Below are positions 3,379-54,459 of a DNA stretch of 64,000 nt, in pieces. The stretch is from Octopus sinensis (Eukaryota). Both the position numbers and the translations under genes were made by a program. The stretch is taken from positions 12,152,001 to 12,216,000 of the forward strand of contig NC_043025.1 of assembly GCF_006345805.1 (NCBI RefSeq). The letters are read 5' to 3'. The notes below the pieces were generated by a model that saw only the letters and a list, made by a program, of their open reading frames with translations, ran no database searches and was not told the origin of the DNA. Position 1 is the first letter of the stretch; each line of letters opens with the position of its first letter.

Positions 3379-3520
3379 GGAGGCGCAATGGCCCAGTGGT
3401 TAGGGCAGTGGACTTGCAGTCATATCGCGATTTTGATTCCCAGACCAGACATTGTGAGTTTTTATTGAGCGAAAACACCTAAAGCTCCACAAGGCTCCGA
3501 AAGGGGGTGGAGGCGGATGC
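3379..3520 (+). mobile_element. tRNA-derived SINE family C head
   Basis: ggaggcgcaatggcccagtggttagggcag A box and a degenerate B box; relatives at 35688(+) and 28465-28830(-). Confidence 0.7.
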
Positions 3521-3743
3521 TGCCATAGGTACTTGCGTTTGTCCTATTTTTCCGAATAGGACAAGAAAAAGGTGACCCGAGATTTCAAGAGAGACGAGTT
3601 TCTTTAGAGTAATGTGGCTATTGATGCAGAAAATTTAACGAGAATGAACCGAGATATTTTAAAACGTCTTTAGAATTGTCAAAGAAAAGAAATAGTGAGT
3701 CACCATTTGAATGAATCTAGTGTGAGAAACCGGATTTACGCAA

Positions 3744-4130
3744 TCTCTCTCTATATAAACGGCAGTTTGTCTGTGTGTGTTTCTGTGTGTCTGTTTGGTT
3801 GTACCCTCACCCTGACCACGGCTTTCAACCGATTCTGATGAAACTTGACACACACATAGCCCAATGTCATAATTCAAAACTAACGCAGCGAAAATTTTGA
3901 AAAGTTCCCCCAGTTCTGAAAAAGATCGATAAATTCGACATGGGGTCGACAATCAGAAACACAAACCACAGATGGTCTAGGGGACGCAACTCGACCTTTT
4001 TAACTATCAAAAAAAATTTACCATCATTTTTTTCCCCATTTTTTTGCTATTTTTTGGCTATAACTCTCTAAAAATGCTTATATAGTTATTTCCCTTACAA
4101 ACCCGAGCAACGCCGGGCGATACTGCTAGT
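3744..4130 (+). mobile_element. Non-autonomous Helitron-like element
   Basis: 5' TC, subterminal GC hairpin cccgagcaacgccggg, 3' CTAG then T, no TSD. Confidence 0.75.
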
Positions 4131-4339
4131 TATATATAAGTGTATATATGTATAAATATATATTATATATAATTGTATATATATGTATAAATATATATTA
4201 TATATAATTGTATATATGTATAAATATAGATATGTGTACAGAGTGCAATTGGTAAATTGTTGCCATTTAAATTTTTTTCTTTTGTGCACACGCATTGTTT
4301 GTTTTTTGATTTTTGTTTACTACACAGTATAGTAGGGTC

Positions 4340-4815
4340 AGTTGGGCACTGTCTGTTTGAAAAAACAGCATCATGAGGCAATTCACTGCCAGAAATTTGG
4401 AAACGACATGCTGTATTGCCTGGCATTCATGCTGAATCCTCCAATGTGAACACTTCAGATTGTTTGGATGTCAATCCGAGGACAGCGTAGAAGATTCGGA
4501 AAAAGCCGAATGAGTCTAGTGGTAATTATGAAGGTATGGCAGCTCGGAGAACTCGCTCTGGTGAGAAAAGAACCCTTGAATTTGTCGGTGACATCCAGGT
4601 CATGATCGACAATGATTCTTCTAACGCTGCCAGGGAAATAGGAGCGTCCAGACTTTCTTATCAGCAGGTATCGCATACAGACATTCGGTATTCCTCAATC
4701 AAGATGAGAAACGGTCAGTTTTTATCCCTAGCCATCAAGGACCAAAAAATGACTGCACTATGAAGCTTTTCAAGAAAATCTAGCATTCCCTACGACTGAA
4801 CGTGCTTTCCTTTTT
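4340..4815 (+). mobile_element. Tc1/mariner-like transposase N-terminal remnant
   Basis: RTLEFVGDIQVMIDND...AREIG...DIRYSSIKMRNGQFLSLAIKD; the last 65 bp or so are repeated at 5216-5285. Confidence 0.6.
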
Positions 4816-5460
4816 CTTGAGCCTCGCCTGGCCCCCGTGCCGGTGACACGTAAAAGCACCATCTGTTCGTGGCCGTTTGCCAGCTCTGTCTGGCACCTGT
4901 GCAGGTGGCACGTAAAAAACACCCACTACACTCACGGAGTGGTTGGCGTTAGGAAGGGCATCCAGCCGTAGAAACACTGCCAGATCTGACTGGGCCTGAC
5001 GAAGCCTTCCAGCTTCACAGACCCCAGTTGACCCGTCCAACCCATGCTAGCATGGAAAGCGGACGCTAAATGATGATGATGATGAAGAAAAATTTCTAGG
5101 CGCAGGAGTGGCTGTGTGGTAAGTAGCTTGCTTACCAACCACATGGTTCCGGGTTCAGTCCCACAGTGTGGCACCTTGGGCAAGTATCTTCTACTATAGC
5201 CTCAGGCCAACTAAAGGACAAATAACAACTGCACTATGAAGCTTTTCAAGAAAATCTAGCATTCCCATCGACTGAACGTTGCTTTGTGTCGAGTCTAAGA
5301 AACGTAAGGGTCTTGATAACATTCTATTGGAGTTACCTGGCGTTACCTGTCGTAAATGGCAATTTAAGCTTATTCAGGACATCCGAATGAAACCAAATTC
5401 CGGATCTATCATCTGGTACTATGATCCGATAGGCAACTCGGGTAAGACCTATTTATCACA

Positions 5461-5856
5461 TTACTCTTTTACTTGTTTCAGTCATGTGACTGCGGCCATG
5501 CTGGAGCACCGCCTTTAATCAAGCAAATCGACCCCGGGACTTATTCTTTTTGTAAGCCCAGTACTTATTTTATCGGTCTCTTTTAGCCGAACCGCTAAGT
5601 AACGGGGGACGTAAACACACCAGCATCGGTTGTCAAGCAATGCTAGGGGGACAAACACAGACACACATATACATATATATATATACATATATACGACGGG
5701 CTTCTTTCAGTTTCCGTCTGCCAAATCCACTCACAAGGCTTTGGTCGGCCCGGGGCTATGGTAGAAGACACTTGCCCAAGGTGCCACGCAGTGGGACAGA
5801 ACCCAGAACCATGTGGTTGGTAAGCAAGCTACTTACCACACAGCCACTCCTGCGCC
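5461..5856 (-). mobile_element. SINE family A inserted into the viral Rep
   Basis: Full head-to-tail copy splitting Walker A from the rest of the helicase. Confidence 0.9.
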
Positions 5857-6026
5857 TTTGTTATATACAAACCTTGCATGGCCTCCGTCTAGAAAATGGT
5901 AGGTCCACTGATCTGAAATATATGCATGATGGCCACAAGATCGTTACCTTTGATTATACACGATCTCAAGAAGATCACATAAACTATGAAGCCCTCGAAA
6001 GTATTAAAAATGGCCTTCTCTGCTCT

Positions 6027-6123
6027 ATGAAGCATGTACCTGTTGTGAAGCATGTACCTGTTGTGAATTATGTACCTGTTGTGAAGTATGTACCTGTTGT
6101 GAAGTATGTACCTGTTGTGAAGT
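6027..6123 (+). repeat. In-frame 18-bp tandem repeat (about 5 copies, K[HY]VPVV) inside Rep
   Basis: gaagcatgtacctgttgt repeated with small variants. Confidence 0.9.
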
Positions 6124-6183
6124 CCTTTCCTATACCTCATGTTGTAGTTTTTGCCAACTTCCCTCCAGACCTTAACAAGATTT

Positions 6184-9100
6184 CAGAAGCTTGGAACGAT
6201 TGCATTAAAAAAAAATTTTTTTTAAGGGTCCAGAAAGAATTCAGCAAATAAATTCAAATTCTGAAATTTATCTAAAAATGCCTGTTAACAGGGTGACACG
6301 AATTCAATAAATTTGATGACTAAAATTTGGAGATGATCTCGACACGGTCAACAAAAATGGTTATACAGCATTACATCATGTTGTGATTGGGTAAGTTTAG
6401 AATGAACATTGCACAATCAAAGCCTTGGCTGAGGGGGCAACATAGATGTCTGCAACATGTTAAAAGAGGGAGCAGATATTAAAACAAGATCCATCCAAAT
6501 TTGATGACAAAATTTGGAGATGATCTCAACGTGGTAAACAAAAATGGTTAGACAGCTTTCCATTATGGTGTGATTGGGTAAGTTTAGAATGAACATTGCA
6601 CAATCAAAGAATTGGCCGAGAGGGCAACATAGATGTCTGCAACATGTTAAAAGAGGGAGCAGATATTAAAACAAGATCCATCCAAATTTGATGACAAAAT
6701 TTGGAGATGATCTCAACGTGGTAAACAAAAATGGTTAGACAGCTTTCCATTATGGTGTGATTGGGTAAGTTTAGAATGAACATTGCACAATCAAAGAATT
6801 GGCCGAGAGGGCAACATAGATGTCTGCAACATGTTAAAAGAGGGAGCAGATATTAAAACAAAATCCAACAAGGGTTATACAGCTTTATATCATGCTGTGA
6901 TCGGGTGAGTTTAGAATGAACATTGTTCAATCAAAGCCTTGGCTGAGAGGGGATGAACATGCCCCATTGAGAGAGTGCTTTGATACATGTCAATCAGGGT
7001 AGGGCAAACTGAAGTGTTGCTCCGACTGAGATCCACATAGAGGTCTTAAACATGTTAAAAGAGGGAGCAGATATTAAAACAAGAGACACAAAGGGTTATA
7101 CAGCTTTACATTGTGCTGTGATCGGGTGAGTTTAGAATTAACATTGCACAATCAAAGCCTTGGCTGAGAGGGGATGAATGTGCCCCATTAAGATAGTCTA
7201 TTGATACATGTCAGTCAGGGTAGGGCAAACTGGAAAGTTGCTCCGACTGAGATCCACATCCCAGAATGAATGCAGACAAGTGTGACATGACATCAGTCAG
7301 ATGTAGAAGGGGTTGCATCTCTCCAGATCGGAGACAAAGGGGTGGGTGAAGCCCCCTAATGCACGTAAATATCACGTAAAAGCACCCACTACACTCACGG
7401 AGTGGTTGGCGTTAGGAAGGGTCCTGAAGGAATTCAGCAAATAAATTCAAATACTGAAACTTATCTAATGATGCCTGTTAACAGGGTAACACGAATTCAA
7501 TAAATTTCATGACAAAAAGGGTCATACAGCATTGCATCATATTGTGATTGGGTAAGTTTAGAATTAACATTGCACAATCAAAGCCTTGGCTGAGAGGGGA
7601 TGAATGTGCCCCATTGAGAGAGTGCTTTGATACACTTCAATCAGGGAAGAGCAAACTGAAGTGTTGCTCCTACTGAGATCCACATTCCTTTATGAATGGG
7701 GTCACCCAAGTGAGACACCACAGCAGTCAGAATTAGAAAGGGTTTTGGTCTGTCTAGATTGGAGACAAAGGAGTGGGTGAAACCCCGTAACGCTTGGTGC
7801 AACAACACAAGGGGAGAAATGAAGGGTGACTGCAATCAGTATAGGAAAAATAGATATCAGTGGATATTCACCAAACAGATGAAAATGGTGAAACATTACT
7901 CATGGCATCTTGTAAACAGGGCAACATAGATGTCTTAAACATTTTAAAAGAGGGAGCAGATATGAGAACAAAATCCAACAAGGGTTAGACAGCTTTACAT
8001 CATGTTGTGATTGGGTAAGTTTAGAATTAACATTGCACAATCAAAGCCTTGGCTGAGGGGGCAACATAGATGTCTTAAACATGTTAAAAGAGGGAGCAGA
8101 TATTAAGACACGAACCAACAAGGGTTAGACAGCTTTCCATTATGGTGTGATTGGGTAAGTTTAGAATGAACATTGCTCAATCAAAGCCTTGGCTGAGAGG
8201 GCAACATAGATGTCTGCAACATGTTAAAAGAAGGGGCATATATTAAAACATGAACCAACAAGGGTTAGACAGCTTTCCATTATGGTGTGATTGGGTAAGT
8301 TTAGAATGAACATTGCTCAATCAAAGCCTTGGCTGAGAGGGCAACATAGATGTCTGCAACATGTTAAAAGAGGGAGCAGATATTAAAACAAAATCCAACA
8401 AGGGTTATACAGCTTTATATCATGCTGTGATGGGGTAAGTTTAGAATGAACATTGCTCAATCAAAGCCTTGGCTGAGAGGGGATGAACATGCCCCATTGA
8501 GAGAGTGCTTTGATACATGTCAATCAGGGTAGGGCAAACTGAAGTGTTGCTCCGACTGAGATCCACATAGAGGTCTTAAACATGTTAAAAGAGGGAGCAG
8601 ATATTAAAACAAGAGACACAAAGGGTTATACAGCTTTACATTGTGCTGTGATCGGGTGAGTTTAGAATTAACATTGCACAATCAAAGCCTTGGCTGAGAG
8701 GGGATGAATGTGCCCCATTAAGATAGTCTATTGATACATGTCAGTCAGGGTAGGGCAAACTGGAAAGTTGCTCCGACTGAGATCCACATCCCAGAATGAA
8801 TGCAGACAAGTGTGACATGACATCAGTCAGATGTAGAAGGGGTTGCATCTCTCCAGATCGGAGACAAAGGGGTGGGTGAAGCCCCCTAATGCACGTAAAT
8901 ATCACGTAAAAGCACCCACTACACTCACGGAGTGGTCGGCGTTAGGAAGGGTCCTGAAGGAATTCAGCAAATAAATTCAAATACTGAAACTTATCTAATG
9001 ATGCCTGTTAACAGGGTAACATGAATTCAATAAATTTCATGACAAAAAGGGTCATACAGCATTGCATCATATTGTGATTGGGTAAGTTTAGAATTAACAT

Positions 9101-12100
9101 TGCACAATCAAGCCTTGGCTGAGAGGGGATGAATGTGCCCCATTGAGAGAGTGCTTTGATACACTTCAATCAGGGAAGAGCAAACTGAAGTGTTGCTCCT
9201 ACTGAGATCCACATTCCTTTATGAATGGGGTCACCCAAGTGAGACACCACAGCAGTCAGAATTAGAAAGGGTTTTGGTCTGTCTAGATTGGAGACAAAGG
9301 GGTGGGTGAAACCCCGTAACGCTTGGTGCAACAACACAAGGGGAGAAATGAAGGGTGACTGCAATCAGTATAGGAAAAATAGATATCAGTGGATATTCAC
9401 CAAACAGATGAAAATGGTGAAACATTACTCATGGCATCTTGTAAACAGGGCAACATAGATGTCTTAAACATGTTAAAAGAGGGAGCAGATATTAAAACAA
9501 GAGACGTCTGTGGTTAGACAGCTTTACATCATGCTGTGATCGGGTGAGTTTAGAATGAACATTGCACAATCAAAGCCTTGGCTGAAAGGGGATGAATGTG
9601 CCCCATTGAGACAGTCTATTGATACATGTCAGTCAGGGTAGGGCAAACTGGAAAGTTGCTCCGACTGAGATCCACATCCCAGAATGAATGCAGACAAGTG
9701 TGACACGACATCGGTCAGTTGTAGAAGGGGTTGCATCTCTCCAGATCGGAGACAAAGGGGTGGGTGAAGCCCCCTAATGCATGTCGCACAACACATAGAG
9801 AGAAATGAAGTGTGTCTGCGATCAGTCTGCGGAAAATAGAAATTGGTGGGAGGAATGCCATGTCACATATCGGGGGTTCAGAGGGTGGTTAGCACCGCTG
9901 GTGACGAAGGAGAGGTAGACACCAGCCCTGTGACCCTTCAAATATCAAAAAGGGAAAAATTGGCCACCCACTGGCTTGGACAATTTCAAAACAGAATAGA
10001 GGAGCAGTGATCTTCATATCTGGGATGGGGTCACAAGAAGAAATTCAGCGGGTAATGTGGATTAAGGGAACCAGACGCAAGGGGAAATGATGTCACACCA
10101 AGAAGCAGTGTGTTTAAACAGTCTCTTTGCTGGGCTGTCCAGTGCAGAAGGTGTGGCTGGGGAAGTATTCCTTTCTGACCAGGAGCTTGGACAGATTGCA
10201 TGCAAAAGAAAAAAAGAGAAAAAAAGGGTCCTGAAAGGATTCAGCAAATAAATTCAAATACTGGAATCTATCTAACGATGCCTGTTGACAGGGTAAAACG
10301 AATTCAATAAATTTCATGACAAAAAAGGTCATGCAGCATTGCATCATGTTGTGATTGGCTAAGTTTACAATTAACATTGCACAATCAAAGCCCTGGCTGA
10401 GAGGGCAACATAGATGTTATAAACATGTTAAAAGAGGGAGCAGATATGAGAACAAAATCCAACAAGGGTTAGACAGCTTTACATCATGTTGTGATTGGGT
10501 AAGTTTAGAATGAACATTGCACAATCAAAGCCTTGGCTGAGGGGGCAACATAGATGTCTTAAACATGTTAAAAGAGGGAGCAGATATTAAGACACAAACC
10601 AACAAGGGTTAGACAGCTTTCCATTATGTTGTGATTGGGTAAGTTTAGAATGAACATTGCTCAATCAAAGCCTTGGCTGAGAGGGCAACATAGATGTCTG
10701 CAACATGTTAAAAGAAGGGGCATATATTAAAACACGAACCAACAAGGGTTAGACAGCTTTCCATTTTGGTGTGATTGGGTAAGTTTAGAATGAACATTGC
10801 TCAATCAAAGCCTTGGCTGAGAGGGCAACATAGATGTCTGCAACATGTTAAAAGAAGGGGCATATATTAAAACACGAACCAACAAGGGTTAGACAGCTTT
10901 CCATTTTGGTGTGATTGGGTAAGTTTAGAATGAACATTGCACAATCAAAGCCCTGGCTGAGAGGGCAACATAGATGTCTGCAACATGTTAAAAGAGGGAG
11001 CAGATATTAAAACACGAACCAACAAGGTTAGACAGCTTTCCATTTTGGTGTGATTGGGTAAGTTTAGAATGAACATTGCACAATCAAAGCCTTGGCTGAG
11101 AGGGCAACATAGATGTCTGCAACATGTTAAAAGAGGGAGCAGATATTAAAACACGAACCAACAAGGGTTAGACAGCTTTCCATTTTGGTGTGATTGGGTA
11201 AGTTTAGAATGAACATTGCACAATCAAAGCCCTGGCTGAGAGGGCAACATAGATGTCTGCAACATGTTAAAAGAGGGAGCAGATATTAAAACACGAACCA
11301 ACAAGGGTTAGACAGCTTTCCATTTTGGTGTGATTGGGTAAGTTTAGAATGAACATTGCACAATCAAAGCCTTGGCTGAGAGGGCAACATAGATGTCTGC
11401 AACATGTTAAAAGAGGGAGCAGATATTAAAACACGAACCAACAAGGGTTAGACAGCTTTCCATTTTGGTGTGATTGGGTAAGTTTAGAATTAACATTGCA
11501 CAATCAAAGAATTGGCCGAGAGGGCAATATAGATGTCTGCAACATGTTAAAGGAGGGAGCAGATATTAAAACAAGAGACACAAAGGGTTATACAGCTTTA
11601 CATTGTGCTGTGATCGGGTGAGTTTAGAATTAACATTGCACAATCAAAGCCTTGGCTGAGAGGGGATGAATGTGCCCCATTAAGATAGTCTATTGATACA
11701 TGTCAGTCAGGGTAGGGCAAACTGGAAAGTTGCTCCAACTGAGATCCACATCCCAGAATGAATGCAGACAAGTGTGACATGACATCAGTCAGATGTAGAA
11801 GGGGTTGCATCTCTCCAGATCGGAGACAAAGGGGTGGGTGAAGCCCCCTAATGCACGTAAATATCACGTAAAAGCACCCACTACACTCACGGAGTGGTTG
11901 GCGTTAGGAAGGGTCCTGAAGGAATTCAGCAAATAAATTCAAATACTGAAACTTATCTAATGATGCCTGTTAACAGGGTAACACGAATTCAATAAATTTC
12001 ATGACAAAAAGGGTCATACAGCATTGCATCATATTGTGATTGGGTAAGTTTAGAATTAACATTGCACAATCAAAGCCTTGGCTGAGAGGGGATGAATGTG

Positions 12101-13745: not shown

Positions 13746-14530
13746 CTTCGGATCTGTTTGGTTTCAAAATTCCTCCCAATTCTAGAGTAGTGTAACATCC
13801 AAAGGTGAGGCATGCAAAAAGCACCACCCGGAGGTGACTGATGCCAGGGCGCCCTGGTAGACACCTGAATAGATTAGCAGTGATCTTTAGATCTGCGTGG
13901 GTTCATGTGAAGAAATTAAAGGGGCAATGAGAATGAGGACCAGAACCAAGAAGAAAGGATTTTCACATTACGAAGCATAGTATCTAAAGATTTCAGTCTC
14001 TTCTGGGTTGTCTCATGCAAAAGGTGTGGTTTGGGAAATTTCACATTTTGGCAAGAAGTTTAGGTAAAGTCCAGATAAACTTAATCAAATTTAGACAATG
14101 GCACTTACCTAACGAAGCCTGTGAAGTGGGTAACACAAGAATAATAAGTTTGAGGATAGAAGTTGGAGATGAGAGGAATCGGTGACAAAGACAATGAAAC
14201 AGCATTACATTATTCTGTGATTGGGTTAAGTTTAGAATTAACTAAAATCTCCAGATCTGAGTTTGTTTCTGAATTCCATCTAATTCTTGCCCAGTGAAAT
14301 ATTCAAAGATATGGCATGGAAAAAGCCCCACCCGAACATGACGAATGCCGGGGTCCCCTTACTATCTCCTGTATCGATCATCATCATCATCATTATCATT
14401 TAACGTCCGCTTTCCATGCTAGCATGGGTTGGACAGTTCAACTGGGGTCTGGGGAGCCCGAAGGCTGCACCAGGCCAGTCAGATCTGGCAGTGTTTGGCA
14501 GATAAATATCCGAATGTGATCAACACCAGC
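13735..14530 (+). repeat. Segment duplicated at about 18255-18930 (degenerate ankyrin-exon variant plus modules)
   Basis: Near-identical sequence from aaaccttcggatctgtttgg to gtgatcaacaccagctc. Confidence 0.85.
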
Positions 14531-14629
14531 TCCCTCAGGCTGGCTCCTTCGCTGATGGCACATAAAAAGCACACGCTACAGTCCGGAGTGGTTGGCATGT
14601 GGAAGGGCATTCAGCTTCAGGAACATTGC

Positions 14630-14780
14630 TGGATCCGATTGGAGGACGTCCACCACAGATGGCTTTGCTCTGTCGTAGATATCTAATGGAAGGAATCCAT
14701 CACCAACATTGAAGCGCTCAAGCAGGCCAACATCTGAGCATTGAAGACTTCCTGCTCTTCAGACAGCCTCAGGAGGGAAG
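14630..14780 (+). mobile_element. Degenerate RTE-like LINE RT C-terminal fragment
   Basis: LEDVHHRWLCSVVDI*WKESITNIEALKQA resembles the FHQRCLRxILxIxWxDxITNxEVL motif. Confidence 0.6.
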
Positions 14781-15069
14781 GCCATGTGAGAAGCATGCAC
14801 AAACCTAGATTGCCAAGGGATGTATTCGACAGCAAGCCCAGCTAAATCAAAAGGACACTCCCAACAGAAGAGTACCAGAGAACAGCTAAAATACCAGCTT
14901 ACCCTGGCAGAGATTTTCCCCACCCACAAAACAAGGTAGGAAGGAGTTGCAGCATAGAGTGGTGAGGTGAGAAACTGTATCCACACTACCGCAGGGGACC
15001 TTGAAAACACCCGAGCAAGTGCCACGGATGAGGAATTAACTAAAATCTCCAGATGTTTACTTTAATTAA

Positions 15070-17860
15070 TGAAATGTTTGCTTGTAAACAGGACGACACA
15101 GTTTCATGGGGACAAACTAATCTAATGATGGCCTGTAGAAAGGACGACAGTTTTATGGGGACGAACTCCTTTAATGTTTGCTTGTAAACAGGGCGACACA
15201 GTTTTATGGGGACGAACTCCTTTAATGTTGGCTTGTAAACAGGGCGACACAGTTTTATGGGGACAAACTCCTTTAATGTTGGCTTGTAAACAGGGCGACA
15301 CAGTTTTATGGGGACGAACTCCTTTAATGTTTGCTTGTAAAGAGGGCGACACAGTTTTATGGGGACGAACTCCTTTAATGTTTGCTTGTAAACAGGGCGA
15401 CACAGTTTTATGGGGACGAACTCCTTTAATGTTGGCTTGTAAACAGGGCGATACAGTTTTATGGGGACAAACTCATCTGATGATGGCCTGTAGAAAAGAC
15501 GACAGTTTTATGGGGACGAACTCCTTTAATGTTGGCTTCTAAACAGGGCGACACAGTTTTATGGGAACGAACTCATCTGATGATGGCCTGTAGAAAGGAC
15601 AAGAGTTTTATGTGGACAAACTCCTTTAATGTTTGCTTGTAAACAGGGCGACACAGTTTCATGGGGACAAACTCATCTAATGATGGCCTGTAGAAAGGAC
15701 AAGAGTTTTATGTGGACAAACTCCTTTAATGTTTGCTTGTAAACAGGGCGACACAGTTTCATGGGGACAAACTCATCTAATGATGGCCTGTAGAAAGGAC
15801 AAGAGTTTTACGTGGACAAACTCCTTTAATGTTTGCTTGTAAACAGGGCGACACAGTTTCATGGGGACAAACTCATCTAATGATGGCCTGTAGAAAGGAC
15901 AAGAGTTTTATGTGGACAAACTCCTTTAATGTTTGCTTGTAAACAGGGCGACACAGTTTCATGGGGACAAACTCATCTAATGATGGCCTGTAGAAAGGAC
16001 AAGTTTTTATGTGGACAAACTCCTTAATGTTTGCTTGTAAACAGGGCGACACAGTTTCATGGGGACAAACTCATCTAATGATGGCCTATAGAAAGGACAA
16101 GAGTTTTATGTGGACAAACTCCTTTAATGTTTGCTTGTAAACAGGGCGACACAGTTTCATGGGGACAAACTCATCTAATGATGGCCTGTAGAAAGGACAA
16201 GAGTTTTATGTGGACAAACTCCTTTAATGTTTGCTTGTAAACAGGGCGACACAGTTTCATGGGGATAAACTCATCTAATGATGGCCTGTAGAAAGGACAA
16301 GAGTTTTATGTGGACAAACTCCTTTAATGTTTGCTTGTAAACAGGGCGACACAGTTTCATGGGGACAAACTCATCTAATGATGGCCTATAGAAAGGACAA
16401 GAGTTTTATGTGGACAAACTCCTTTAATGTTTGCTTGTAAACAGGGCGACACAGTTTCATGGGGACAAACTCATCTAATGATGGCCTGTAGAAAGGACAA
16501 GAGTTTTATGTGGACAAACTCCTTTAATGTTGGCTTGTAAACAGGGCGACACAGTTTCATGGGGACAAACTCATCTAATGATGGCCTGTAGAAAGGACAA
16601 GAGTTTTATGTGGACAAACTCCTTTAATGTTGGCTTGTAAACAGGGCGACAGTTTCATGGGGACAAACTCATCTAATGATGGCCTGTAGAAAGGACAAGA
16701 GTTTTATGTGGACAAACTCCTTTAATGTTGGCTTCTAAACAGGGCGACACAGTTTCATGGGGACAAACTCATCTAATGATGGCCTGTAGAAAGGACGACA
16801 CAGTTTCATGGGGACAAACTCATCTAATGATTGCCTGTAGAAAGGACGAGAGTTTCATGGGGACAAACTCATCTAATGATGGCCTGTAGAAAGGACAAGA
16901 GTTTTATGTGGACAAACTCCTTTAATGTTGGCTTGTAAACAGGGCGACACAGTTTCATGGGGACAAACTCATCTAATGATGGCCTGTAGAAAGGACAAGA
17001 GTTTTATGTGGACAAACTCCTTTAATGTTTGCTTGTAAACAGGGCGACACAGTTTCATGGGGACAAACTCATCTAATGATGGCCTGTAGAAGGGACAAGA
17101 GTTTTATGTGGACAAACTCCTTTAATGTTTGCTTGTAAACAGGGCGACACAGTTTCATGGGGACAAACTCATCTAATGATGGCCTGTAGAAAGGACAAGA
17201 GTTTTACGTGGACAAACTCCTTTAATGTTTGCTTGTAAACAGGGCGACACAGTTTCATGGGGACAAACTCATCTAATGATGGCCTGTAGAAAGGACAAGA
17301 GTTTTATGTGGACAAACTCCTTTAATGTTTGCTTGTAAACAGGGCGACACAGTTTCATGGGGACAAACTCATCTAATGATGGCCTGTAGAAAGGACAAGA
17401 GTTTTATGTGGACAAACTCCTTTAATGTTTGCTTGTAAACAGGGCGACACAGTTTCATGGGGACAAACTCATCTAATGATTGCCTGTAGAAAGGACGAGA
17501 GTTTCATGGGGACAAACTCATCTAATGATGGCCTGTAGAAAGGACGACACAGTTTCATGGGGACAAACTCATCTCATGATGGCCTGTAGAAAGGTCAAGA
17601 GTTTTATGGGGACAAACTCCTTTAATGTTTGCTTGTAAACAGGGCGACACAGTTTTATGGGAACGAACTCATCTGATGATAGCCTGTAGAAAAGACGACA
17701 GGTTTATGGGGACGAACTCCTTTAATGTTGGCTTGTAAACAGGGCGACACAGTTTTAACAAACTTGTAGAAAGGGGTTGGAGTTGATTTCAACATGAGTG
17801 ACAAAATTGCTCCTACAGCTTTCAATGATGCCATGATTGGGTAGGGTCAGAATTAACTAA
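15070..17860 (+). repeat. Ankyrin-helix satellite: 51-bp monomer turning into a 100-bp (49+51) dimer, ending in the rest of the ankyrin exon and its donor
   Basis: Monomers translate GRTPLMFACKQGDTVLW / WGQTHLMMACRKD. The array runs into GVGVDFNMSDKIAPTAFNDAMIG|gtagggtcagaattaac at about 17760-17860. Confidence 0.9.
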
Positions 17861-53600: not shown

Positions 53601-54459
53601 ACGGACGTTATACGATGATGATGATGATGATGATATATATATATACATATATATATATGCATATACATACATATTATATATTATATATATATAATATATA
53701 CTTTATTTTAAGCAGCAGAAAATTCAACAAAATCTGTTACTCTGAGTTTCTCGTTGCCGTTCATCAGACAGTTTTTCTAGCAAAAACTGTCTGATGAACG
53801 GCAACGAGAAACTCAGAGTAACAGATTTTGTTGAATTTTCTGCTGCTTAAAATAAAGCATATTACTCTACCACTGGTATTTGAGTACTCCTTTTTCCACC
53901 TTCGGGTGTGTATACACATGTACAGTTTTGCATGCTTAATTTCTATTTCACGGGCACCAGTCTGTGTTTACTGTAATTTTTATGTCAATGTGTTCGATGC
54001 TTCTGTTTTCTTACTCCCAGGCGTCAACGTGATGCCGTGGCCAGCATGATATCCTGGGGTGTCGATGTCAACAAGCGGGACATATTTGGCGACACGCCCC
54101 TCCATTTGGCCGCAAGGAAGAGAGACGAATGGAAAGACGGGGTTTCAGCCTTATTGACCCCAGGAAAGAGCAGGCTGCAAGTGAGTGGCTCTGTGTGTAT
54201 ATGTGTGTATATATGCAGCGGTGAATATGGTTACCCTTTTACTTGTTTCAGTCATTTGACTGCGGCCATGCTGGAGCACCGCCTTTTTAGTCGAGCAAAT
54301 CGATCCCCCACCCACCCAGGACTTATTCTTTGTAAGCCTAGTACTTATTCTATCAGTCTTCTCTTGTTGCCGAAGCGCTAAGTTACGGGGATGTAAACAC
54401 ACCAACATCGGTTATCAAGCGATGCTGGGGGGACAAACACAGACACACAAACATATACG

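What the first reader, a model, noticed from the sequence alone, without database searches (positions are those of the whole stretch)
5288..6190. Endogenous nanovirus/alphasatellite-like CRESS virus Rep in a likely cephalopod genome
Seen: after removing a 400-bp SINE insertion the two halves join in frame and show SF3 helicase Walker A (DPIGNSGKT), Walker B (IVTFD), the YEALESIKNG..S.K.P segment and motif C (HVVVFANFPPD), with no stop codons in the viral part. Established: this motif set is typical of Nanoviridae/alphasatellite-like Reps. The host SINE inside it argues for true integration rather than contamination. Inference: a fossil of an ssDNA virus infecting this lineage.
Basis: partly seen in the sequence, partly recalled or inferred. 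Interest (0 to 1): 0.75.

Follow-up and report, generated by a model that had tools for sequence, protein, structure and literature searches.

The report
Fossil ssDNA virus gene in octopus
A broken piece of a small circular DNA virus's replication gene sits in what is most likely an octopus chromosome, at the same spot in independent sequencing data, and likely records an ancient infection of octopuses by relatives of a marine virus family whose true hosts are not established.

Summary
Real. Window 5282-5461 and 5862-6184 encode consecutive parts of the helicase half of a CRESS-virus Rep, split by a high-copy host SINE. There is no endonuclease half, capsid or origin nearby, and both ends are cut, so it is most likely a dead endogenous viral element. 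Contigs from four studies bridge the right virus-host junction (4 of 4 runs) and the left one (3 of 4), under two to three organism labels, which argues against contamination. Each half, placed separately, joins a well-supported clade with Octopus vulgaris and O. bimaculoides Rep-derived proteins (54% identity to the nearest). The 'nanovirus/alphasatellite' label is not supported: the closest classified viruses are Anicreviridae (same order, Mulpavirales), 2.1-2.3 kb Rep+capsid circles from a marine snail, a shrimp and dragonfly larvae. Family membership is unresolved (weak backbone). The SINE gives a rough minimum age of about 11 Myr (6-18). CRESS fossils in molluscs are known; I found no cephalopod report in my searches, but could not see one key survey. 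Main value: germline evidence that an Anicreviridae-like lineage likely infected octopuses more than once.

The parts
5282..5461 (+). Left part of the Rep fragment: end of the region before the helicase, and Walker A (motif name from established knowledge). Cut at its 5' end; no endonuclease domain upstream.
   Evidence: tblastn of P0001 residues 35-95, 54%, E 2e-17; groups with P0001 in a tree, SH-aLRT 95; none of 10 longer relatives aligns further upstream
5461..5857 (-). Host SINE inserted into the Rep fragment (strand inferred from its inverted match to the copy at 5098-5216 and its simple-repeat tail)
   Evidence: many copies in the window; inverted repeat I1; summed contig depth mostly 1e5-1e7 against 5-55 in the viral parts; 13 of 340 sites differ from the majority of 8 other copies
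5858..6184 (+). Right part of the Rep fragment: Walker B, the NY..IE.IKNG segment and motif C; cut before the D-R columns that are invariant in relatives
   Evidence: tblastn of P0001 from residue 95, E 5e-30; invariant D180/R181 in a 63-row alignment; host repeat starts near 6184; Octopus clade 100/97
6028..6123 (+). In-frame 18-nt tandem expansion (5.3 copies) of a viral hexapeptide; copy number differs between samples
   Evidence: 24-residue gap against P0001; one contig of run X2 skips 6034-6069, two units
5214..5285 (+). Left host flank: 72-bp second copy of 4737-4808
   Evidence: 90% identity; family D2
4820..5216 (.). Two host interspersed-repeat pieces (4820-5088 and 5097-5216) upstream of the viral fragment
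   Evidence: multiple 84-92% copies in the window
6184..6500 (+). Right host flank: start of a long region of tandem units with ankyrin-repeat-like frames
   Evidence: Pfam Ank hits, below cut-off at 6780 and 7854, above it at 15129

Best explanation
This is a cut-down, SINE-interrupted piece of a circular ssDNA (CRESS) virus Rep helicase gene lying in what is most likely an Octopus chromosome, likely captured in the germ line of an ancestor from an Anicreviridae-like virus that likely infected octopuses, and likely inert today. Shown: Rep identity, the host SINE inside it, host DNA on both sides, the same junctions in independent data sets, membership of an Octopus clade of Rep-derived sequences, absence of endonuclease, capsid and origin in the window. 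Inferred: viral DNA replicating in a germ-cell nucleus was joined to the chromosome by non-homologous repair or Rep nick-joining; deletions or neighbouring repeats then cut both ends; a SINE (roughly 11 Myr ago) and an 18-nt slippage array followed; the piece has since drifted neutrally. It is likely a separate insertion from the other Octopus copies.
For: Best hits are Octopus proteins (P0001 CAI9733846.1, P0003 CAI9729859.1, P0258 XP_014788809.1), then viral Reps; Atlas feature and structure hits are Cressdnaviricota clusters; the P0001 model matches viral Reps at E down to 3e-20 and cellular ATPases only at E about 1e-3. Of 24 runs listed 4 were laid: the right junction is bridged in 4 of 4, the left in 3 of 4; run X2 (organism B) differs at 10 of 644 letters and by two repeat units, so the locus is inherited and older than the split of those samples. 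Each half separately joins the Octopus clade (97 SH-aLRT; 100/97). Nearest classified: four Anicreviridae (right half 70-93 bits against 46 for the amesuvirus; taxonomy). 29 of 32 conserved residues kept and no stop in 133 codons fit neutral decay of 2-6.5% (P no stop 0.35-0.75), but 15% decay is unlikely (P<=0.02 for so few changes), so most of the 30-46% protein difference from P0001 arose under constraint, as in a virus.
Against: No exogenous member of the Octopus clade was found (only seed-word matches or none), so the donor virus is not seen. The tree backbone is weak (74/92 for the group holding 3 of 4 Anicreviridae; the fourth falls elsewhere; bootstrap not settled) and rests on the helicase only, with no nanovirus, alphasatellite or smacovirus row. 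Contigs reach only 9-25 letters into the SINE, below the tool's 31-letter bar, so the SINE junctions are not formally bridged. Run X5 does not cover the left part. One run may be the window's source. No whole genome was available, so copy number and synteny with other copies are untested. Host genus rests on homologues and repeat content, not on a name.
Confidence: 0.75

Rival explanations
1. The copy is a host duplicate of one older insertion that octopuses kept as a constrained (co-opted) helicase gene family; this copy later decayed.
For: All Octopus-named relatives lack a Viral_Rep domain by Pfam, keep 32 of 32 conserved residues and share a C-terminal tail found in no other of 329 fetched proteins; P0258 and P0003 are 93.8% identical in the core and 84.9% in the tail across two species.
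Against: Unnamed clade members P0027/P0029 extend upstream into linker-like sequence and end early, as decayed insertions would; the tails of P0001 and P0003 are only 31% identical; the window flanks are repeats, not a gene context.
Confidence: 0.13
2. The virus infected a parasite or symbiont of the octopus, or came with food, and its DNA entered the octopus germ line by accident.
For: Hosts of these invertebrate-associated viruses are not assigned (PMC4498126, passages); protist parasites host other CRESS families (PMC9615429, passages).
Against: At least three distinct Octopus sequence types form one clade of 6-8 rows; repeated germline entry is easier for a virus that replicates in octopus nuclei (inference).
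Confidence: 0.07
3. The donor was a larger DNA virus or mobile element that had captured such a Rep.
For: Close relatives P0006-P0008 and P0025 lie on 55-1900 kb contigs of unknown nature; a 19.6 kb virus record carries a 39%-identical Rep; Rep capture by poxviruses is published (PMC10193959, passage).
Against: No other long frame of non-repeat character near the fragment; the best IMG/VR matches to both halves are mostly 2.1-2.3 kb circles.
Confidence: 0.04
4. Assembly contamination or a plant nanovirus/alphasatellite sequence.
For: Helicase motifs resemble those of nanovirus Reps; BBTV Rep matches the fold at E 3e-13.
Against: Host SINE inside, junction-bridging contigs from four studies; nanovirus and alphasatellite Reps rank 30, 46 and 49 of 50 shown, at 26-31% identity.
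Confidence: 0.01

Closest known systems
Anicreviridae (Mulpavirales): Dragonfly larvae associated circular virus-10, Littorina sp. associated circular virus (Rakkovirus canuewis), Palaemonetes grass shrimp associated circular virus (Otevirus soksuewis), Tentweb spider associated circular virus 1
   Same: Highest-scoring classified Reps for both halves; 42-61% identity to the helicase of the Octopus paralogue, 138-167 bits; 3 of 4 lie in the same weakly supported group as the Octopus clade.
   Different: The Octopus clade is a separate branch (100/97) with its own C-terminal tail; here only a dead helicase fragment remains; those viruses are known from metagenomes with no assigned host.
Octopus Rep-derived predicted proteins CAI9733846.1 and CAI9729859.1 (O. 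vulgaris), XP_014788809.1 (O. bimaculoides)
   Same: Same clade; the first is sister to this copy (99/88); UniRef already auto-labels two of them as Rep or SF3 helicase.
   Different: They are long open frames of 266-310 aa keeping 32 of 32 conserved residues; this copy is cut, interrupted and only 51-59% identical to them by BLAST.
Nanoviridae master Rep and Alphasatellitidae Rep
   Same: Same fold and motif style (single-Asp Walker B; recalled); Nanoviridae belong to the same order (recalled).
   Different: 26-31% identity in the fold search (a different method from the BLAST figures); single-gene components, whereas the close relatives here are two-gene circles (same contrast drawn for a marine clade in PMC4498126).
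Published CRESS endogenous elements in invertebrates (Aplysia in PMC3198968; mollusc and crustacean elements clustering with nanoviruses in PMC4573495)
   Same: Rep-derived fossils in animal, including mollusc, genomes.
   Different: No cephalopod and no link to Anicreviridae in the passages seen; their sequences were not compared here.

Membership tests
Cressdnaviricota Rep-derived sequence | SF3 helicase with Walker A, Walker B and motif C homologous to CRESS Reps | tested here: met
Cressdnaviricota Rep-derived sequence | N-terminal HUH endonuclease domain | tested here: not met
   no upstream match for 10 longer relatives in the window; present in the exogenous relatives (PF02407), so read as truncation
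Endogenous viral element | Joined to host DNA in independent data | tested here: met
   right junction bridged in 4 of 4 runs, left in 3 of 4
Endogenous viral element | Orthologous insertion in related taxa | tested here: met
   same junctions under organism labels A and B, right part also C; labels are coded, so their taxonomic distance is not known
Endogenous viral element | Empty pre-insertion site in an outgroup | not testable with these tools
   no eukaryote genomes held
Anicreviridae | Rep falls inside the family's clade | tested here: inconclusive
   nearest by score; group with 3 of 4 members only 74/92 and the four are not one clade in the helicase-only tree; 4 of 9 genera sampled
Anicreviridae | Monopartite circular genome with Rep, capsid and nonanucleotide origin | tested here: inconclusive
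   true of the relatives; absent from the window (no nonanucleotide at 3500-8000; best of 8 capsids E 0.12 far away)
Nanoviridae / Alphasatellitidae | Rep most similar to nanovirus or alphasatellite Reps | tested here: not met
   26-31% identity, ranks 30-49, against closer Anicreviridae and unclassified Reps; no such row could be put in the trees
Nanoviridae / Alphasatellitidae | Single-gene component of about 1-1.4 kb, plant host (recalled) | tested here: not met
   closest exogenous relatives are 2.1-2.3 kb two-gene circles; host here is an animal
Amesuviridae | Rep groups with Yerba mate-associated circular DNA virus 1 | tested here: not met
   lower scores and a separate branch in all trees
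Smacoviridae | Rep groups with smacoviruses (similar Walker A, recalled) | not tested
   no named smacovirus Rep was returned by any search

The most novel reading that the evidence does not exclude
Octopuses host their own lineage of Mulpavirales viruses, which entered the germ line several times over more than 10 Myr, the first host-anchored animal lineage beside Anicreviridae; and one endonuclease-less copy (O. bimaculoides XP_014788809.1 / O. vulgaris CAI9729859.1) has been kept under selection as an octopus gene, possibly a dominant-negative antiviral helicase.
Probability: 0.2. Interest if true: 0.75.

Novelty: new member of a known kind. Interest (0 to 1): 0.45.

Why it matters
Most CRESS viruses have no known host, and those pulled from marine invertebrates could be food or passengers (PMC4498126, PMC9615429; passages). 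A fixed, datable germline fossil ties an Anicreviridae-like lineage to octopuses, puts an animal host in the order that holds the plant nanoviruses, and gives a probe for finding the living virus in octopus data, which matters for cephalopod aquaculture. The class of object (Rep fossil in a mollusc) is already known, and this copy itself is likely inert, so interest is moderate.

Tried and rejected
Pfam on the two halves found no Rep family. Own-genome search: no genome held. An alignment query to viral contigs had no conserved stretch; a single protein was used instead. Searches for an exogenous member of the Octopus clade: P0001 in viral contigs, 0 of 11 candidates confirmed; P0258 in metagenome contigs, 2 of 70 passed but rest on one 7-residue seed and were rejected. 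Atlas search with the tail of P0258: no usable hit. Searching with the amesuvirus Rep to collect named nanovirus or alphasatellite references returned 37 proteins, none so named. PDB sequence search hit only the endonuclease part of the alignment. Rfam at 4300-6400: one chance hit, E 0.48. P0207 is a repetitive bacterial-type protein, a chance hit; L002 and L006 were short weak matches and were not followed. Expression: run X3 is only guessed to be RNA and is contigs, so it shows nothing about transcription. The missing left part in X5 (depth about 5) is no evidence of absence. Two careful tree searches did not finish and gave quick trees; the finished one used 41 hand-picked rows. P0002 (near copy of P0258) was dropped from the trees; P0150 and P0096 from the left-half tree; P0150, P0029 and P0096. 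Earlier findings of the scan: none.

Full report
Observation. Pfam does not see them, but a search with the right part returned 1 protein of 2273 candidates, P0001, at E 7e-29: Octopus vulgaris CAI9733846.1, labelled 'Replication associated protein' by UniRef. Laid back on the window, P0001 matches 5282-5464 (residues 35-95) and 5862-6197 (95-183), 54% each, and nothing else below E 1.5. Between them lies a repeat of about 400 bp with many 84-91% copies in the window. An in-frame 18-nt array at 6028-6123 adds 24 residues. Viral similarity stops near 6184, where a host unit shared with positions near 10180 and 27947 begins, so the fragment ends before the D-R pair that is invariant in 63 aligned relatives (its role as arginine finger is recalled). 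Ten longer relatives and eight capsids of related viruses find no endonuclease or capsid remnant in the 64 kb, and no nonanucleotide lies at 3500-8000.

Is it in the host genome? No whole genome was held. Of 24 public runs listed, 17 hold half or more of the sampled words, under three coded organism labels (part of that share is SINE). I laid 4 of them, from 4 studies. Single contigs cover 5228-5484/5485 in X1, X3 (organism A) and X2 (organism B), bridging the left virus-host junction; contigs cover 6094-6256/6260 or 6070-6259 in all four, bridging the right one. Depth in the viral parts is 5-55 against mostly 1e5-1e7 in the SINE. X2 differs at 10 of 644 letters and lacks two repeat units. Against: the contigs reach only 9-25 letters into the SINE, X5 (depth about 5) lacks the left part, only 31 pieces were displayed, and one run may be the window's source. 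The locus is therefore inherited and shared between at least two organism labels. The host is most likely Octopus, on the homologues and the repeat content; I did not decode the labels.

Relatives. With P0001 residues 20-190, 164 of 222 candidates passed E<=1e-5. The top ones are O. bimaculoides P0002/P0258 (XP_014788809.1), O. vulgaris P0003 (CAI9729859.1) and an unnamed Logan protein, then unnamed Reps, many with Pfam Viral_Rep, and a protein of the snail Batillaria attramentaria (P0096). The Atlas gives Cressdnaviricota clusters. Each half was placed separately: the left half is sister to P0001 (SH-aLRT 95) in a 7-row clade (97), the right half likewise (99/88; clade 100/97; 41 rows). Four clade rows (P0004, P0027, P0029, P0150) are unnamed and are octopus only by inference.

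Which family? The best IMG/VR matches to a close full-length relative are 2.1-2.3 kb circles with ambisense Rep and an arginine-rich second gene, and a (C/T)AGTATTAC motif. Exact look-up names four of them, and NCBI taxonomy puts all four in Anicreviridae, order Mulpavirales. They outscore the amesuvirus reference for both halves (right 70-93 against 46 bits; left 36-40 against 32). Banana bunchy top virus Rep and two of its satellite Reps rank 30, 46 and 49 of the 50 fold matches shown, at 26-31% identity. Membership of Anicreviridae is not shown: the group holding the Octopus clade and 3 of the 4 has only 74/92 support, the fourth lies outside, the bootstrap had not settled, and no nanovirus or smacovirus row was available.

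Age and state. The inserted SINE differs at 13 of 340 sites from the majority of eight other copies in the window. At 0.0036 substitutions per site per Myr (rate quoted in PMC13282606, passages) that is about 11 Myr, range 6-18, a rough minimum for the viral piece. The fragment keeps 29 of 32 conserved residues, while P0001, P0258 and P0003 keep 32 of 32. With no stop in 133 codons this fits neutral decay of 2-6.5%; 15% decay would rarely leave so much (P<=0.02). The open frames are thus no sign of function, and most of the distance to P0001 arose under constraint, which favours a separate insertion from a related virus over a decayed duplicate (inference). Expression was not shown.

Mechanism. 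Inferred from established knowledge: CRESS viruses replicate in the nucleus by rolling circle and encode no integrase; pieces enter chromosomes by non-homologous repair or Rep nick-joining, and become heritable in germ cells. Here later events cut both ends, and a SINE and a slippage array interrupted the rest. Without endonuclease, origin, capsid or a complete helicase it is predicted to be inert. Confidence: endogenous CRESS Rep about 0.97; the whole account, with octopus as true host and an Anicreviridae-like donor, 0.75.

What is known. Rep fossils are reported in Aplysia (PMC3198968, passages), and mollusc and crustacean elements cluster with nanoviruses and environmental sequences (PMC4573495, passages). 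Definitive hosts of the marine invertebrate-associated viruses, including the Littorina and grass-shrimp ones, could not be assigned (PMC4498126, passages); a review table lists invertebrates and vertebrates for Anicreviridae (PMC11945456, one passage). A preprint notes that groups beside Nanoviridae show only the Viral_Rep domain in domain searches (10.1101/2022.03.09.483724, passages), as seen here. No cephalopod CRESS element appeared in the listings of searches (top 20-25 rows each; 'Anicreviridae' is in 2 papers), nor in term searches of PMC6011040, PMC9615429, PMC10193959 and PMC13282606; PMC13475009 and PMC11532311 gave only taxonomy passages. I read no supplements and could not see Zhao, Lavington and Duffy 2021 (cited in PMC9615429), a eukaryote-wide survey that may list Octopus. 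UniRef's automatic names already flag two paralogues.

Verdict. A real endogenous CRESS Rep fragment; a new member of a known kind, with a corrected family assignment and useful host evidence. The livelier lead is the intact pair P0258/P0003 (core 93.8%, tail 84.9% identical), which may be co-opted orthologues or two recent insertions; this was not resolved. Interest 0.45.

Noticed in passing
P0258 (O. bimaculoides XP_014788809.1) and P0003 (O. vulgaris CAI9729859.1): Endonuclease-less Rep helicase frames of 310 and 266 aa, 93.8% identical in the core and 84.9% in a 120-aa tail, 32 of 32 conserved residues kept. Candidate co-opted gene; orthology untested.
   Followed up: partly
P0001, P0003, P0004, P0258 C-terminal tails: A tail with a cysteine pair and a predicted final helix is shared only within the Octopus clade among 329 fetched proteins; no Atlas hit.
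   Followed up: partly
window 6184-28200: Long region of tandem units (periods 100, 140, 187, 221, 280, 327, 420 bp) whose frames hit ankyrin-repeat models; looks like amplified, decaying ankyrin exon-intron units.
   Followed up: partly
window 4330-4810: Broken frames resembling the start of a Tc1/mariner transposase (recalled resemblance; Pfam gave no such hit); its last 72 bp recur at 5214-5285, directly before the viral piece.
   Followed up: partly
P0096 (Batillaria attramentaria, BaRGS_018034): A predicted snail protein carries a piece of the same kind of Rep helicase (63% to P0001 over 86 aa): a likely second mollusc fossil, outside the Octopus clade.
   Followed up: partly
P0006-P0008, P0025, P0263 (ENA): Close Rep relatives on contigs of 55-1900 kb; P0263 has an arginine-rich, capsid-like start fused to a Rep. 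Possibly fossils in other eukaryotes; context not obtainable.
   Followed up: no
L086 (OP947160.1, Pinkberry virus LS07-2018-MD00) 14523-15416: A 19.6 kb virus record with two annotated replication-associated proteins, one 39% identical to P0001.
   Followed up: partly
window 53977-54381: Short frame with a weak ankyrin-repeat hit (E 0.0003, below cut-off), possibly a host exon.
   Followed up: no
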